Of a stretch of 64,000 nt of DNA, positions 1,572-20,761 are shown in pieces. Under the pieces are notes generated by a model. That model saw only the letters and a program-made list of their open reading frames with translations. It was not told where the DNA came from and did not search any database. This stretch comes from Octopus vulgaris (lineage: Eukaryota): NCBI GenBank assembly GCA_951406725.2, contig OX597820.1:64418001-64482000 (forward strand). The letters are read 5' to 3'. The first letter of the stretch is position 1; every line of letters begins with the position of its first letter. The translations under genes were made by a program, and so were the position numbers.

Positions 1572-1632
<61 letters not shown>

Positions 1633-1727
1633 GATATTATATATATACACACATATATATATATATATATATTATACATATACACATATATATACATACA
1701 TATATATATGTATATATATGCATATAT

Positions 1728-2172
1728 ATATTAATAGTTATCGCCATATTGATATGGCAGTCTATAAATATAAGACTAAAGCTGTCGCTGATTAGCTCCA
1801 AGAGGCCATCGCCTCTCGCTAGCTATATGACACACGAACCTGCATCCATTACAACCTTCGAACAGGGGAGGTCAGTAGCGACACCTGCTGGTTCTGACTA
1901 CGCTGCATTGATAAAGGGCAACATCCCTGAAACATGTCTGCAGATGTCTGACTAGTAAGGTGAAGCGGCTGACCTCCCCTGTTCGAAGGTTGTAATGGAC
2001 GCAGGTTCGTGTGTCATATAGCTAGCTAGAGGCGATGGCCTCTTGGAGCTAATCAGCGACAGCTTTAGTCTTATATTTATAGACTGCCATATTAGTGTGG
2101 CGATAACTATTAATATCCAGTAACGCTATCGTAATCTCCTTTAGAGAGACTTAGTAATTTTAATATTTCTAT
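1728..2172 (+). mobile_element. Inverted-repeat element (Penelope pLTR-like) carrying a hammerhead motif, next to (TA)n
   Basis: 148-bp arms 1728-1875 and 1969-2116 with about 5 mismatches, 93-bp spacer, about 55-bp unpaired 3' extension, then TA-rich sequence. Confidence 0.75.
1903..1943 (+). ncRNA. Minimal type I hammerhead ribozyme, U3-A8 core variant
   Basis: CTGCA-TTGATAA-AGGG caacat CCCT-GAAAC AT GTC-TGCAG: stem I 5 bp, stem II 4 bp, palindromic ACATGT stem III, GUC triplet. Confidence 0.7.
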
Positions 2173-4779
2173 CATATATATATTGATACACACATATACA
2201 TTCATACATATATATGCGTGTATATTTTGAACATACACGCATATGCAGTTCTTTTTTATTTGAAATCTTGCTCGTTTGAATCATCTCCTAACATCATATG
2301 ATCAGTAAGAAATGCCGCCTAACCTAGCAAAAGAGGGCATACTTATATACGTATGCGTGCATATAAATATATATGTGTGTGCGCGCGCACATGTGTGTGT
2401 GTGAGTTAATGTATGTAGGCATGCGTATACTTATGAATGTTTCTGTGAATATGTATATTCGTGTAGTGTGTTTGTGTTTGAGAGAAAGTGACACACAGAG
2501 AGACAGACCAACAGACAGAGGGACAGAACTGATGACAGCAAGAATATGTTGCGTAATTATACCTACAGGCGTGACATGAACCGGAAACTTGAGAATAGTT
2601 ACTGCCCTTCAATATGTCAAAAGTTGAAGAATATTACAACGAAGAAAATATCGATTGGTTGGTATGATCTTGAGTCTCTTGGTCGTACACTTTTCATATT
2701 TCACAAAAGAAATCAAAAATTATAACGAAAAGAACAAAAAACTCAAGTGGTTCCAACGCTAATAGGTGAGAGGTTATCTATATAAATAAAACTACATGTA
2801 TTTCTATTAGGATATGGCCTCATGTGATAAACTATGTGGTTGACTGCCGTGGTGTTGGCGATGGTGATAGTCGTGGTGGTGGTGGTGGTGGTGTCAGTGT
2901 GGAGTTTGGCTGACGTAAAAATGTCCAACAGGTCATGATAAATGGCTAACAGGTCCCAATGTAACCTCGCAATTCAAATCGATATAGAATATTATGGGAA
3001 GCTAACACTGCTTCAGTGGAAATGTTTAACCTGAAAATAAATAAATAAAATAAAATAAAATAAAACTAAACCTCAATAAATTAATGAATAAATAAATAAA
3101 GTGGTATATTATTTCAGCGCGCTGACAGACGTCAGGATTATCAAGGGTGACTGCAATGGATTGTAAGTACAAAAATTATGTAACTTTTAGTAGATGTGCT
3201 TTTTTTTTTAAAGGATTTGAAAGACAAGGAAAGGCGACAGGAATGGAGATTCTACAGGATCTGTATGACCGGAAGAAGTTACAGACGAATATGTTGGTAA
3301 CGTTAAACAATTGTCTTCGCCTTATTGTTTGCAACGACGCACACACACACATACACACACACGCACACATACATATACATACACACTCACCCGATATCTA
3401 GGACGGCGTTCAGAAATGGCCGCTCCACTGGTCCGCAGAATATCGCTCACAGCCCCGCTGTGAATCTCGAGCGTGCAATCAGCGTACTATACTATCGCTA
3501 CTATAATGACGCCTGTCTCTCGGCGCTGATTGCACTTGTATCATGTTGTTAAAGTTTTCCTGCAGCCTTCAGTTATATCACCCTACATAATTCTGTGTCC
3601 AACCCACGCCCCGTACTAACCACTACACTTAATTGTTCCTTATCAAAATATTGGTCATGCAGACGCCCTTCAGCTCCTGTCTTCCCCTTAGTTGTCTTGC
3701 AACGATTCAAAAGAACCCTTTATGGCCGGAATATCTCAGATTTCGGAAAGCTTATAGAAACCTGAGGTACTATATTTCCATCATACACAGTGAATATAAA
3801 AACTGTATCACATGTTAATGTTATCTATACTTATTTTCTACAGAAATCATAGCCAACACTTATTTTGTTTCGACGTTTTGTAATCGATACGCTTCATGTA
3901 AACAGCGATGAAATCGTGGTAAATTTGCGTATATGCCATATTTCATCTTCGATCTCATTGTGTTTAAATCAAACGTCTCGGATATTAAAGGTCGTAACAA
4001 AATTAGTCCTGGCTATAATTTCTATATAGAATCTGTAGAGACAACCTTAACAAGTGATGTAATAGCACTACGAACACTGTAGAACCCAGTATTGATTTAT
4101 AAAAACGCTTAATATACCTTGTAATATATTATGGTTGCATAACGAAATACAGAGGCCATACAAGTCATTAATAAACGTTGTAGACCCCTCTAATTGCACA
4201 GGATACAGAAAGTGGTATCAATTTGGGTGGCATATTATTTTCGCATACTAATATACTTCAGCGTAAAAGAACAATTCTTTGTTCCACGCACTGAGTGACA
4301 ACACAGGAACCATCATGGATAAGGTTCAATATTTGTAGACCTTGATTGCTGAAAACACTATTCTTTTCAGTTCTTCGTACTACTGATCTTCATGTTATGT
4401 TGTTTATGTTTGGTGATATTTCGATATAAACTCATCTGAAATATCTACTCAGATAGATCTGCAATCGAACACAAATATCCTCACGATTAATGAAAGAAGC
4501 TGTTTCAATGAAAAGCGTTTAAGAGATTGCCTTACCTGCTAGAAATGGCAAACAATCACCCTCAAAACAAAGCCTAAAATGTTTAAAATATAACAAACTC
4601 ACCATATAAAGTGATACAAAATAACTTGGCCCAAAATAAAAGACAAACATGTACGGCCTTGACCATCTTCAGTGGAAAGTTTTCCTTCTCTGGGTCGACT
4701 GCGCTGTTATGCAATTCGTACAATATCGAAAAAAAGGATTAGCATAAACTCTTGTTACTTGTTCACTAATAGAATAGAA

Positions 4780-5250: not shown

Positions 5251-6109
5251 TGGGAAAAACGGCTAAGGTAGAAATGTGGTAAACGTGTGTTATGATATGC
5301 CTGCAATATACTTGTCAACGTATGTAGAGAACAAGAAAGAATTTTAATAACATATTTAAAAAGATAAGTTCAAATAGTGAGAGTAATACAAATGTGAAAT
5401 ATTTATTAATGTCAAAACAAAACTTGTTTGGTAATTTACAGTTATTCCAATTTAATCCGATTTACTGAAGACTACTAAAATCTTCCTGTTTTTTTTTTTC
5501 TTTTCTTTCCTTTTTTCTATTGCTAGCAAATAAATTCTTGCAAAGGAATACACCAGCATGGCTTATGCAAATATTTAGGATTCTATAGTCAGCAAGAATG
5601 AAAGATGATTTCAGTTATAAGTTGATTTCTAGAAAAGGTTATAAACTTCTATTTTCAGGTCAAAGGTGATGATGAAATAGAGCAAAATTTATTAGATATT
5701 AATGTTAAAGGTTACTAAATTAATAGCGTAGATCTTATTAATATACATTAATAAGATCCAAAGCGGTGAGCTTATAAAACAAGAAACGTTTCACAAAGTG
5801 AAGACCGTCTAGTCAGTGAAAAGATAACTAGTTTACTATATTAAATGTAATTATATAAAGAAAACATAGACAGACAGTGGCTAATAAGTTCAAAACAACA
5901 CGTAACCAATAAAATGCAAATATATTTTATTACTTCTATAAATGTCTTAGATTTCAGCTGTCGATTATATATATATATATGTATGTAGGTATGTATGTAA
6001 TTATGTATATATGTGTGTTCGTGCGCGCTCGTGTATATGTGTGTGTGTATTTGTGTGTGTATATATGTATCTATATATGCGTGTGTGCGTGTGTGTGTGT
6101 GTATATATA

Positions 6110-6178: not shown

Positions 6179-6304
6179 CATACATATATAAAAGAGGGAT
6201 TGCCACTAAGTGGGCATCCAATATGTTAGAAGTAGACTTCTAGGCTGTCTTCTACTTCTAGCATATTGGATGTCCACTTAGTGGTCATCCCTCTTATATG
6301 TATG
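6179..6304. repeat. Hairpin inverted repeat, about 45-bp core arms and 14-nt loop
   Basis: 6192-6236 pairs with 6251-6295, with flanking CATACATATA/TATATGTATG pairing. Confidence 0.9.
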
Positions 6305-16143: not shown

Positions 16144-17348
16144 CATATATACGAAACTGAGAAACTATTCTTCTTTCGAACCAATGTGCAAAACGAAAGC
16201 AGACATGGACTATCACTTATACGTTTAAAATTTACATAATATATTTTTTACATTTCTCATTTAAAAAATCTCTTCTGAAAAAAGAAAAACTACGGAACAT
16301 CAATATCTCAGAGCAGGAAGTCAGATAAATAATCAGCTATTTTTCTTATGCTAATATTTCGAGATAATATGTGGTGGAGTTGTGGGAGCTGCTGAACTGT
16401 TACGTAGCATCAATCAATCAAAGTAACTTGGAAAATATGTGTTATTAAAGATAGCAATGTATACTAATAATAATTTCTTTGTAATTAGAATAGCATCTTC
16501 AACTTTAAGTTCGCAATATTTCTTTTCTAGTCTTCGTGCTCAATCACACCACTTTTTATGATATACCGACCTAACAGCGAATCATTTTATAAATATACTC
16601 CATAATACGGATGTGCAATTTGCAAGAAGCGTTACTGTTGTAAAATCCGCCATATTTATCACAAATTATAAAATATTACGCAGGCCCGTAGAGAAACCCA
16701 AAATTACACCTTGAGCACTTGATTTAATTGAAATAGAGGATAAATAGATTCATACTCAACAATAACGATATATACATGTGTGTGGGTGTTGTGAGTGAAA
16801 TAGTTATATACATATATATAATCCCATAATCATGCGATCTATGCTAGTAAAATCGGTGCTCCCGGCAAACCGTGACGTTTAAGGTGCATGCTTATTTGTC
16901 AATACCCTATTCGAAAAATTCAGCCACTAAAAGGTATAAAAGGAAGAGGTCAGTCATTTTACTACAGTTGTCATGAACTCAACTGTCGCTTAAAACATTT
17001 GGAAGTCTGGTGATTAGTACGAATGTATGAAATTATTAATTGAACTTCATATATATTACAATTTTTTTTCTGTTTAACACACTTCAGCATTGTAAAAGAC
17101 TTTCTTTAATGAATACAACAATTAACAAAGGTGAAAACCAAACCATGTCGTAGTTTTATTCAATTGATATATTCTTCTATATACATTTACAGAAATTCGG
17201 AATATATATATATATATATATATAAGGCCAAAAGGATGAAGAAAACATCCAGAACCCAACGAAAAACAAAACCGAGAAACCTAGAACACAGGGAAACAAT
17301 GACACATGTCCAGCTCCCAACACCACAACTGAAGACCAAAGAGGTACG

Positions 17349-17906
17349 ATGGCCACAAGAAAAGAAAAGCACCCTAAAATTAATGGGAAACAGGAGGTAA
17401 AAGGCGACAAAATCAAAGTTAAAAGAAACCCTGTCCAGAGAAAACAAAAGGACCCCAGCAAGAACTATAAGGGCAAAGAAAGAAACATCTGCAAACTCTA
17501 CCTGAAAGGGGACTGCTGGTACAGCGTCGAAGGTGCGAACTGTCGCTTTGCACATCAGAGGCCCTACCAAAACCGCACGGACGCGAGACAGGGGTCCCTC
17601 CCTTGGGGAGAACAAACAGAAACAGAAAAAGAAAAAGAAAAATATAAAAGAAGGAAAAAAAGCGCACTGCCCACTCCTGAAAGACGATATGCGGATGTGG
17701 TGCGCGGTAACCCAACAAATGGCCAGCTTCACCCAGATGTGAGAAGGGCAGCAGCTGAACAGCAATCTTTTTTTGTGCATGGCACAAAAAATCGTTCAGC
17801 AGCTGACCTGGCTACAAGCACGAAGCTGGAACTACCACCAACAGATGCAAGATGGCCACCACAGACACCAACACCAACACACACACCACAAACATATTTC
17901 TACTGA
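17349..17906 (+). CDS. LINE ORF1, C-terminal part, Lys-rich with CCCH zinc finger
   Basis: CKLYLKGDCWYSVEGANCRFAH = C-x7-C-x8-C-x3-H; lies directly upstream of and overlaps ORF2; true start uncertain. Confidence 0.7.
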   Translation: MATRKEKHPKINGKQEVKGDKIKVKRNPVQRKQKDPSKNYKGKERNICKLYLKGDCWYSVEGANCRFAHQRPYQNRTDARQGSLPWGEQTETEKEKEKYKRRKKSALPTPERRYADVVRGNPTNGQLHPDVRRAAAEQQSFFVHGTKNRSAADLATSTKLELPPTDARWPPQTPTPTHTPQTYFY

Positions 17907-20761
17907 ACGTAGGAGGGCTGCTGCGCGGAAACTGTAAAAGGTAAATCTCATTCTTGAGAGACCTTGTGACATGCAATCAAGCTATATGCATGGCACTCAC
18001 AGAAACGCATCTTGAACCCGATATAGGTGATGCAGAAATACACAATCCGCAATATGCAGTCATACGCACAGATAGAAAAGGGAGGAGCCATGGTTGAGTT
18101 GCAATGTACATCCGAGATCACCTCACGCCCCAGGTCCTGTTGTCATATTCAAACTCAGTGTGTGAAACTCAAATTTTACACATAAGACAACTGAATATTG
18201 TCATATGCACTACATATCGCCCACCAGATGCCCCAAAACACTCAGGCATGTTTGAAGACTGCCTAACAAAAATAGAAGTCCTCACCAACCTTGAACAACA
18301 CAACAGTGTATTCTTCATGGGTGACTTTAACCTCCCCAATGTGGAATGGCCTGGTGGGGCAGATGCTCCCGGGGATGACACACCATCAGCAGGCACAGGT
18401 AGAGTCCCTGCTCCATCTCACAAATGCCTCTTTCATGGAGCAAATAGTTCTGCAACCAACAAGGGCAGATAATATACTGGATCTCTGCTTCACAAACAAT
18501 ATGGATATTATCCATAATGTTAATGTAATGCCGACAATGATCTCGGATCACAACATAATAGAGCTGTCTATGTATGGAACAAAAGCCCCCGTAGACACAC
18601 AGCCTATACGAAGCATCCACCATCTCTCCAACTTAAACTTTCATAAAGCCAACTGGAAGTTGATTGAGAAAGAGATCCTCGAACAGGATTGGCCTGAATG
18701 TCTCTCCACACCGGACATAAACATGAAACACAAACACTTCATGTCCATAATACAAGCCATATGTGACAAATATGTCCCAGTGTGCAGGGCCATCACACAC
18801 AAGAACAAAAACAGGATCCCTAGAGAAAGGAGGATTCTTATGAGACGACGGACAAGGATTGCGAACCGCCTGAGCAAGCACACCAAAAGTGGTGAGAAGT
18901 CTCGAAAGAATGCTAATGGAAACTGAGAAAAGTCTGCATCAGTCCCATGAAAAGGAGAGAGCAGATAAAGAAGCTTGGGTAATAGAAAATATAAAATCAA
19001 ACCCTAAAGCTTTCTTTAAGTTTGTCAAAGAGACAGCCACAGTGCACCAGAGAATAGTACCTCTCTTCCAAAAAGATGGCTCTCTCACAGGAAATCCCAT
19101 GAGGATAAGTGAAATACTGAACGAACAGTTCCAAAGTGTGTTCGCTACACCTCTAGGACACAGGCAAGTAAACAACCCAGAAGAATTCTTTGCCACTTTA
19201 CCTGCGGCCAAAGAGGCAAAAATTGAGTACATCAACATCGAAGATGATGATATCACACTAGCCATAGATGAGATTAACACAAACTCAGCTGCTGGACCTG
19301 ATGGATTCCCAGCTATCCTTCTCAAATCCTGCAAACGAGCCCTAGCAAAACCGCTACAGCTTCTTTTTCAGAGCTTTCTTGCAAGTGGTAACCTCCCAGT
19401 CAAATTGAAAGAGGGGTAATATGCCCTATCCATAAGGGAGGTAGCAGAGCAGATGCTAAAAATTATAGGCCTATCTCTCTGACCTCACGCATCAGCAAAG
19501 TCACGGAACGAATAGTCCGTAAGAAACTAATCAGGTTCCTTGAAGAAAATGACTTGCTGTCTGACACCCAGCATGGATTTCGACCTGATAGAGGCTGCCT
19601 AACACAGCTCCTGCAACACAATGACTGTGTGTTGAAACAGCTACTAAACGGCTCAAATGTGGATGTAATACATCTCGACTTTGCAAAGGCCTTTGATAAG
19701 ATCGACCATGGTATGATCTGTCACAAACTGCGTGGTCTCGGCATAGGCGGAAAACTTGGAGAGTGGCTGCACAACTTTCTAAAAGACAGAAAACAGGCAG
19801 TTGTGAGCAATGGAACCACCTCCAAGGAAACGCAAATAACAAGCGGTGTCCCACAGGGCACTGTCTTGGGGCCACTGATGTTCATAGTGGCCCTTTCAGA
19901 CATGCCTTCAGTTGCTACGATTACCACCCTTGCTAGCTATGCAGATGACATAAAAGTCTCCCACGCAATACAAAACCCAGAAAATATTGCGCATCTGCAA
20001 CAGGAGTTGGACACAATATACAGGTGGGCCCAGGAAGAATTGTAATCCCTGAGTCAAAATCAGTGCGTGACCAGGGCATTGACATGAGCAATGATGCATC
20101 TTTCCAAGTTCATATTGCTAATCTGATGATCAAATGCAGACGGCTAGCTGGATGGATTCTCCGAACTTTCAGAACAAGAGAGAAGGAGACACTGATAGTC
20201 GTATGGAAAACATTCGTCCTCAGCCGCTTGGACTACTGCTCCCAAATGTGGTCACCACACAATATAAAACTAACAGCAGAACTCGAAGCAATTCAGAGAA
20301 ACTACACAAAGAAAATCGTCTCAATGCAAAACATCAGCTACTGGGAAAGACTGAAGGTATTAAACCTCTTCTCCCTAGAGTGGAGGCGGGGGAGATATGC
20401 GGTGATATACATCTGGAAAATCCTGGAGGGTCTTGTCCCAAACTCTGGCATTCAAAGTTACCCCAACCGCAGAACGAGGCGCCACTGCATGGTGCCAAGG
20501 ATTCCAACATCACCATCAAAATACAGGTCCAGATACTGCAACAGCTTGGGTTTCAGAGGACCACAGCTCTTTAACATCCTCCCTAAATGCCTGAGAGACT
20601 TACATGGTGTGCATGTGGGTTTCTTTAAAACTAAACTGGATCTCTTCTTGTTGGGAGTCCCAGATGAGACTACCTCACGATAGGAGACGCGGATGCGGGC
20701 AGCAGCATCGAACTCCCTTGTTGATCAACTGCCACGAATCAGAGGTGGATTCACAAATTAG
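17852..20761 (+). pseudogene. LINE ORF2 (AP endonuclease + reverse transcriptase), with stops, frameshifts and an internal deletion
   Basis: APE motifs LLNVGGL, ALTETHL, YRPPD, MGDFNLP, ILDLCFTN, ISDHNII; RT motifs AAGPDG, NYRPISLT, QHGFR, LDFAKAFDK, SGVPQGTVLGP, SYADD; C-terminal SRLDYCSQMWSP. Confidence 0.93.

What the first reader, a model, noticed from the sequence alone, without database searches (positions are those of the whole stretch)
1728..2172. Apparently intact ribozyme in the loop of a 148-bp near-perfect hairpin
Seen: arms about 96% identical enclose a 93-nt loop holding a complete minimal hammerhead with a GUC site; the right arm continues as an unpaired tail; no ORF. Known: Penelope insertions often have an inverted partial pLTR and a short 3' extension. 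Inference: a young non-autonomous element whose transcript would be long dsRNA with a self-cleaving loop.
Basis: partly seen in the sequence, partly recalled or inferred. Interest (0 to 1): 0.72.

Follow-up and report, generated by a model that had tools for sequence, protein, structure and literature searches.

The report
Back-to-back Penelope-type retrozyme insertion
This hairpin is one copy of a many-copy, protein-less 362-base repeat that carries a hammerhead ribozyme motif; its two arms likely arose when Penelope-type retrotransposon enzymes pasted two partial copies back to back, a known insertion footprint rather than a purpose-built double-stranded RNA.

Summary
The anatomy is real: 148-bp arms (143/148 matching), a 93-nt loop, a type I hammerhead motif at 1903-1943 (U3-A8 core variant, GUC at 1936-1938) and a 56-nt unpaired tail. 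The mobile unit, however, is not the hairpin. It is a 362-nt tandem-repeating monomer (5,485 genome matches to one 26-mer) with two fixed 3' ends 56 nt apart, inserted mostly into (TA)n. Of 151 sampled insertions, 89 are head-to-head inversions. Of 87 simple ones, 85 junctions are distinct, and 55 of 62 classifiable pairs carry the tail on exactly one arm. In 36 of those 55 neither arm is contained in the other, which excludes simple fold-back copying and favours two target-primed cDNAs joined at a short microhomology. The window's junction recurs in six loci of diverged subfamilies, so it looks like a hotspot. A lone copy cannot form stem III, so self-cleavage is doubtful; transcription of this locus was not shown. 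This is a new member of the metazoan non-LTR retrozymes with the published Penelope insertion footprint. The scan noted the same architecture in other families of this genome. The mobilising enzyme was not identified.

The parts
1575..1727 (.). (TA)n-rich target tract
   Evidence: sequence; 145 of 218 family 3' ends have at least (TA)4 within 20 nt
1721..1732 (+). left copy of a probable 12-bp target-site duplication (low complexity; overlaps the arm end by 5 nt)
   Evidence: 27 of 160 insertions show such a repeat of 8 nt or more against 4.6 +/- 2.3 in shuffled flank pairs
1728..1875 (-). inverted partial copy of the monomer, positions 306 to 159 (left arm; ends at the short 3' end)
1870..1875 (.). 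6-nt microhomology GGTCAG at the head-to-head junction, within the monomer's own internal inverted repeat
1870..2172 (+). main partial copy of the monomer, positions 60-362, 98% identical to the family majority
1872..1876 (+). initiator-like TCAGT; in intact monomers a TATA-like TAAATAAAA starts 24 nt before it and is absent from this copy (promoter role inferred)
1903..1943 (+). type I hammerhead motif, U3-A8 core, palindromic minimal stem III, predicted cut 1938/1939
1969..2116 (+). right arm of the hairpin (monomer 159-306)
2117..2172 (+). 56-nt tail between the two fixed 3' ends (monomer 306 and 362)
   Evidence: 52 ends at 306 and 70 at 362 among 218
2173..2184 (+). right copy of the probable target-site duplication

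Best explanation
The hairpin is a single insertion of a 362-nt protein-less hammerhead repeat, likely pasted by a Penelope-like RT/GIY-YIG protein that would have nicked both strands of a TA-rich target and primed two cDNAs from two fixed sites 56 nt apart on the repeat's RNA. Shown: the monomer, its head-to-tail repeats, the two 3' ends, the TA targets, the head-to-head orientation, the one-tail rule and the short junction microhomologies. Inferred: one nick primes at monomer 362 and the other at 306; both cDNAs run towards the 5' end of a longer-than-unit template (uncleaved tandem RNA or a circle) from one source; their 3' ends anneal at a few complementary bases (here GGTCAG) and repair leaves an inverted pair with a duplication of about 12 bp. 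The ribozyme sits in the loop only because one arm happened to reach past it and the other did not. It would work as a dimer in tandem transcripts, not in this lone copy.
For: Family: 130 BLAST matches from 40 of 2,577 candidates scored; 104 exact 22-mer places; 5,485 places for a 26-mer at up to 2 mismatches, control 0. Tandem 362-to-1 junction in 81 of 138 insertions. Head-to-head switch in 89 of 151, none purely tail-to-tail; 55 of 62 classifiable pairs have one end at about 306 and one at about 362; 85 of 87 junctions distinct; in 36 of 55 neither arm is nested in the other. Junction overlap of 1-4 nt in 59 of 95 inverted loci; arms of one locus differ by 3.6% against 6.6 +/- 0.3% for random pairs, like direct tandem repeats at 4.2%. 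The genome holds young autonomous elements with a 781-aa RT plus GIY-YIG frame; 18 of 30 such loci carry the same TTGATAA core, 17 of them with GAAACATGT, and they show two 3' ends about 38 nt apart next to TA runs. In print: two RT start sites bracket the tail, and both strands are cut and extended (PMC11167929); inverted 5'-truncated copy and one-sided tail (PMC8557442; PMC3846280).
Against: No autonomous element sharing sequence with the monomer was found among 50 GIY-YIG loci, so the partner enzyme is unidentified. The window copy is itself one of the 17 nested cases, so fold-back cannot be excluded for this locus. The tail (56 nt) is longer than the published 30-40 nt. 30 of 517 polymorphic-site comparisons disagree between arms, so some insertions may use two templates. 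25 of 87 simple inversions had an end elsewhere and were left out of the end count. 5' ends do not pile up at the predicted cut (2 of 236 within 3 nt), so the DNA gives no sign of cleaved linear templates.
Confidence: 0.8

Rival explanations
1. The hairpin with its ribozyme loop is itself the mobile unit, transcribed as long dsRNA with a self-cleaving loop.
For: The same junction occurs in 6 loci, three of them apparently of one older subfamily; two loci share another junction (L002, L003). Stems I and II are predicted to form inside the hairpin (probabilities 0.78-0.99).
Against: 85 of 87 junctions are distinct and only 5 use the internal inverted repeat. The six same-junction loci span subfamilies 79-97% identical to the reference, and L244 carries the tail on the opposite arm. 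The TATA-like box is missing here. Stem III cannot close in one copy.
Confidence: 0.07
2. The inverted arm was copied from the first cDNA after it folded back on itself at the internal inverted repeat (self-priming), as proposed for Penelope palindromes.
For: In this copy the short arm is nested in the long arm, and the junction lies in complementary sequence. Arms share derived variants (0.015 per site against 0.002). Self-priming is proposed in PMC3846280 (passage).
Against: In 36 of 55 one-tail pairs each arm holds sequence that the other lacks, which one fold-back cannot produce. It could still hold for a minority, including this locus.
Confidence: 0.1
3. The copy is the truncated terminal repeat of an autonomous Penelope-like element rather than of a protein-less monomer.
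For: Most Penelope-like insertions are 5'-truncated and leave one terminal repeat (preprint 10.64898/2026.07.22.740005).
Against: Where copies extend 5' of position 1 they run into position 362 of the same unit (81 of 138); tblastn of the 781-aa protein against the family loci gave only scattered partial hits, none in a shared position next to the unit. Two leads from run contigs were single-copy places.
Confidence: 0.03

Closest known systems
Metazoan non-LTR retrozymes (Cervera and de la Pena 2020, PMC7229834, passages read; Li et al. 2026, bioRxiv 10.64898/2026.07.22.740005, parts 1-3 of 5 read)
   Same: Non-coding repeat of 350-390 nt as in mussel, one type I hammerhead per unit, head-to-tail copies, compact predicted circle (z -7.3 against 40 shuffles).
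   Different: Here most sampled insertions are partial and inverted, with a one-sided tail; 'inverted' has 0 occurrences in PMC7229834. The core is U3-A8. Circular RNA is not shown here.
Insertion units of endonuclease-bearing Penelope-like elements (PMC8557442 and PMC3846280, passages read; PMC11167929, parts 1-2 of 4 read)
   Same: Partial tandems, inverted 5'-truncated copy head to head, tail on one end only, two fixed 3' ends, TA-rich targets, target-site duplications of about 9-14 bp.
   Different: No RT or endonuclease frame; tail of 56 nt rather than 30-40; no sequence link found to an autonomous family.
Minimal hammerheads of Penelope-like elements, including the U3-A8 variant of Schistosoma (PMC4209133, parts 1-2 of 4 read)
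   Same: Type I topology, palindromic minimal helix III, U3-A8 covariation, dimer requirement, opposite-strand pairs 100-700 bp apart already noted there.
   Different: Stem II is short (3 G-C pairs plus an A-U pair at its base) rather than 7-8 bp.
L1 twin priming (recalled, no call)
   Same: Two target nicks prime two cDNAs that join at a microhomology and give an inversion.
   Different: L1 inversion segments do not normally overlap; here both arms cover the same sequence and start at two fixed sites.

Membership tests
Non-LTR retrozyme | Short non-coding unit with one type I hammerhead | tested here: met
   362-nt monomer; core, stem III and GUC intact in 125 of 159 segments that span it; no credible frame
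Non-LTR retrozyme | Head-to-tail tandem copies with two or more ribozymes | tested here: met
   362-to-1 junction in 81 of 138 insertions; L002, L052 and L134 hold two or more ribozyme units in the same orientation. The window copy itself holds one.
Non-LTR retrozyme | Self-cleavage of the RNA | not testable with these tools
   Only folding: a double hammerhead of two 41-nt cores is -21.6 kcal/mol against a cofold minimum of -22.0 and -8.5 per monomer
Non-LTR retrozyme | Accumulates as linear and circular RNA | tested here: inconclusive
   Only contigs of runs guessed to be RNA were available; they hold family sequence, and one crosses the 362-to-1 junction, which fits a tandem or a circle
Penelope-like insertion footprint | Inverted 5'-truncated copy in head-to-head orientation | tested here: met
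   89 of 151 insertions; none purely tail-to-tail
Penelope-like insertion footprint | Two fixed 3' ends with a tail on one side | tested here: met
   ends at 306 and 362; 55 of 62 pairs have one of each
Penelope-like insertion footprint | AT-rich or microsatellite targets | tested here: met
   145 of 218 ends next to (TA)4 or longer; no background rate computed
Autonomous Penelope-like element | Frame with RT and GIY-YIG endonuclease | tested here: not met
   none in the unit or in the window
Non-autonomous partner of a named Penelope-like family | Terminal sequence shared with an autonomous element | tested here: inconclusive
   no shared sequence in 50 GIY-YIG loci, mostly one superfamily, out of 6,136 candidates; only the ribozyme variant is shared
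Canonical monomeric type I hammerhead (Rfam) | C3-G8 core, stable helix III, Rfam match | tested here: not met
   U3-A8 core, 2-nt loop III, no Rfam match

The most novel reading that the evidence does not exclude
A Penelope-like protein dimer copies a circular ribozyme RNA from two fixed start sites at once, one per target nick, rolls past unit length and joins the two cDNAs at a microhomology. This would explain tandems, inversions and the one-sided tail of all Penelope-like elements by one twin-priming reaction, and a 362-nt circle would be the simplest substrate to test it. I saw no such model in the 20 papers listed ('twin priming' has 0 occurrences in them).
Probability: 0.35. Interest if true: 0.6.

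Novelty: new member of a known kind. Interest (0 to 1): 0.3.

Why it matters
The locus itself is ordinary. The family statistics are useful. They tie a metazoan retrozyme to Penelope-type machinery by insertion footprint, whereas the 2026 preprint argued from co-occurrence and sequence similarity. They also discriminate between models for the Penelope inversion, which PMC8557442 calls a still undefined feature of the transposition cycle: one tail per insertion and non-nested arms argue against simple fold-back. Hairpin loci of this kind could feed dsRNA pathways if read through, but that is untested.

Tried and rejected
Rfam: only low-complexity microRNA-like noise, no hammerhead. Sequencing runs: no holder is on record as RNA and none is kept as raw reads, so RNA ends at 1938/1939, strand, small RNAs and circles could not be examined; contigs of three runs guessed to be RNA covered the element but not the unique flanks, which were covered by a fourth run, and this is no evidence either way. 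Parent element: two loose ends in run contigs each led to one genomic place; 50 GIY-YIG loci share no terminal sequence with the monomer except one neighbouring insertion. The 2.1-kb ORF-bearing relatives were considered as the parent and rejected: the cassette has a flanking duplication, stacks in tandem and also sits in other repeats. Pile-up of 5' ends at the ribozyme cut: not seen. tRNA head: none in the window. Earlier findings by sequence: none. Literature searches listed no paper on an octopus retrozyme; subscription journals, Repbase and supplements were not seen, and the preprint's supplements are closed, so the family may be catalogued there.

Full report
Observation. The window comes from a 2.8-Gb assembly that is AT-rich and full of TA repeats; an octopus-like source is my inference and that of earlier notes, not a tool result. 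The arms 1728-1875 and 1969-2116 match at 143 of 148 positions and fold far better than shuffles (z -34). The 93-nt loop holds the only type I hammerhead that my descriptor found in the window. Its core reads TTGATAA, the U3-A8 covariant of C3-G8 that PMC4209133 reports for Schistosoma elements. Stem III is the palindrome ACATGT with a 2-nt loop, and the predicted cut is 1938/1939. Rfam does not detect it. The tail is 2117-2172.

The unit. A search with the element gave 130 matches from 40 of 2,577 candidates scored. Loci showed that the repeated unit is a 362-nt monomer that continues head to tail. To avoid the bias of that search towards hairpins I sampled by exact motifs. Set B holds 96 insertions containing a 22-mer (104 places, 100 listed). 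Set C holds 55 insertions containing a 26-mer, picked from the first 100 listed of 5,485 places, all on contigs C1-C2. I dropped six loci that repeated a place, L146 (twin of L145), L171/L191 and the second copy in L172. Median insertion length is 438 bp and median identity to the majority sequence 97%. The window copy is monomer 306-159 inverted, then 60-362.

Footprint. 3' ends cluster at two points, 306 (52 ends) and 362 (70 ends) of 218, and 145 of these 218 ends lie next to a TA run. Short direct repeats flank 27 of 160 insertions against 4.6 expected, mostly 9-15 bp, and the window has a 12-bp one. Of 151 insertions 89 switch strand head to head and none is purely tail to tail. Among 87 simple inversions, 62 have both ends at one of the two points, and 55 of these have one of each (P = 9e-10 for the earlier 49 of 55). 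This is the published Penelope pattern: an inverted truncated copy and a tail at one end (PMC8557442), with the tail lying between two reverse-transcription start sites (PMC11167929).

Is the hairpin amplified as a unit? Mostly not. 85 of 87 junctions are distinct and 5 use the monomer's internal inverted repeat. A search for the window's junction gave 9 places: 6 true junctions and 3 native monomers. The six span subfamilies 79-97% identical to the reference, and one carries the tail on the other arm, which fits repeated formation at a 6-nt microhomology. Three of the six look like one older subfamily, so limited amplification there is not excluded. The junction also lies at an initiator-like TCAGT that follows a TATA-like box in intact monomers; 6 of about 10 truncations in this 26-nt stretch fall at 60-62. 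That suggests the main arm ran to the RNA's 5' end. The window copy lacks the TATA-like box, and a transcript starting at the initiator would exclude the left arm.

How the inversion forms. Arms of one locus are more alike than random pairs (3.6% against 6.6% mismatch over 64 loci, which include BLAST-selected ones) and agree at 487 of 517 polymorphic-site comparisons against 357 expected, so they come from one source. Fold-back copying predicts that one arm is nested in the other. In 36 of 55 one-tail pairs the tail-less arm reaches further 5' while the other arm alone has the tail, so neither is nested; 17 are nested and 2 tie. I therefore prefer two target-primed cDNAs, joined by overlaps of 1-4 nt in 59 of 95 cases. 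The window copy is nested, so either route could have made it. Arms up to 2.6 units long and the lack of 5' ends at the cut (2 of 236) require an uncleaved multimer or a circle; the data do not tell which.

Ribozyme. Core, stem III and GUC are intact in 125 of 159 segments. In the window element stems I and II are predicted to form, but the stem III pair has probability 0.0. Two cores can form a double hammerhead at -21.6 kcal/mol, close to the cofold minimum. PMC4209133 found no cleavage for single minimal motifs and low cleavage for dimers, and the 2026 preprint saw cleavage in 1 of 9 dimers. Cleavage of this lone copy is unlikely without a partner molecule.

Partner. The genome has young elements with a 781-aa RT plus GIY-YIG frame and terminal repeats of about 500 bp. 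18 of 30 loci carry the same U3-A8 ribozyme type, with two 3' ends about 38 nt apart at TA runs. They share no terminal sequence with the monomer, so they are a plausible but unproven driver. Their clade was not determined.

Verdict. A real, young, ordinary insertion of a new retrozyme family with the Penelope footprint. Earlier notes of this scan describe the same architecture in other families of this genome; they are not independent support. Interest 0.3, carried by the mechanistic statistics rather than by the locus.

Noticed in passing
L192 2041-3759 and 4030-5616; also L173, L134, L213, L214, L221, L222, L225, L230: A 1.7-kb cassette with one 445-aa frame (CCHC knuckle; no Pfam family, no homologue at E 0.001) sits in the monomer at a fixed site just 5' of the ribozyme, with a duplication of about 17-20 bp, often stacked in tandem. 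97 genome matches; 7 of 30 loci are in this family at that site, and L216, L220 and L231 appear to sit before other hammerhead repeats.
   Followed up: partly
L094 1244-6460 and related loci L061-L110: Young autonomous Penelope-like family: 781-aa RT plus GIY-YIG frame with many open copies, an overlapping upstream frame of 479 aa without a convincing Pfam match, 504-bp terminal repeats, U3-A8 hammerhead and a tail of about 38 nt.
   Followed up: partly
window 17226-20683 (+): Frameshifted LINE with CCCH-type finger, endonuclease and RT matches.
   Followed up: partly
window 6183-6304: Second, unrelated hairpin: 54-nt arms, 89% complementary, 14-nt loop, between simple repeats; no hammerhead found there.
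   Followed up: no
L172 3068-3437 and about 5470-5841: The same inverted insertion appears twice 2.4 kb apart, probably a local duplication or an assembly repeat; L145 and L146 are a similar pair 254 kb apart.
   Followed up: no
L243, L246, L247, L248: Older subfamilies of the monomer, 79-87% identical, with altered ribozyme stems and the same two 3' ends.
   Followed up: partly
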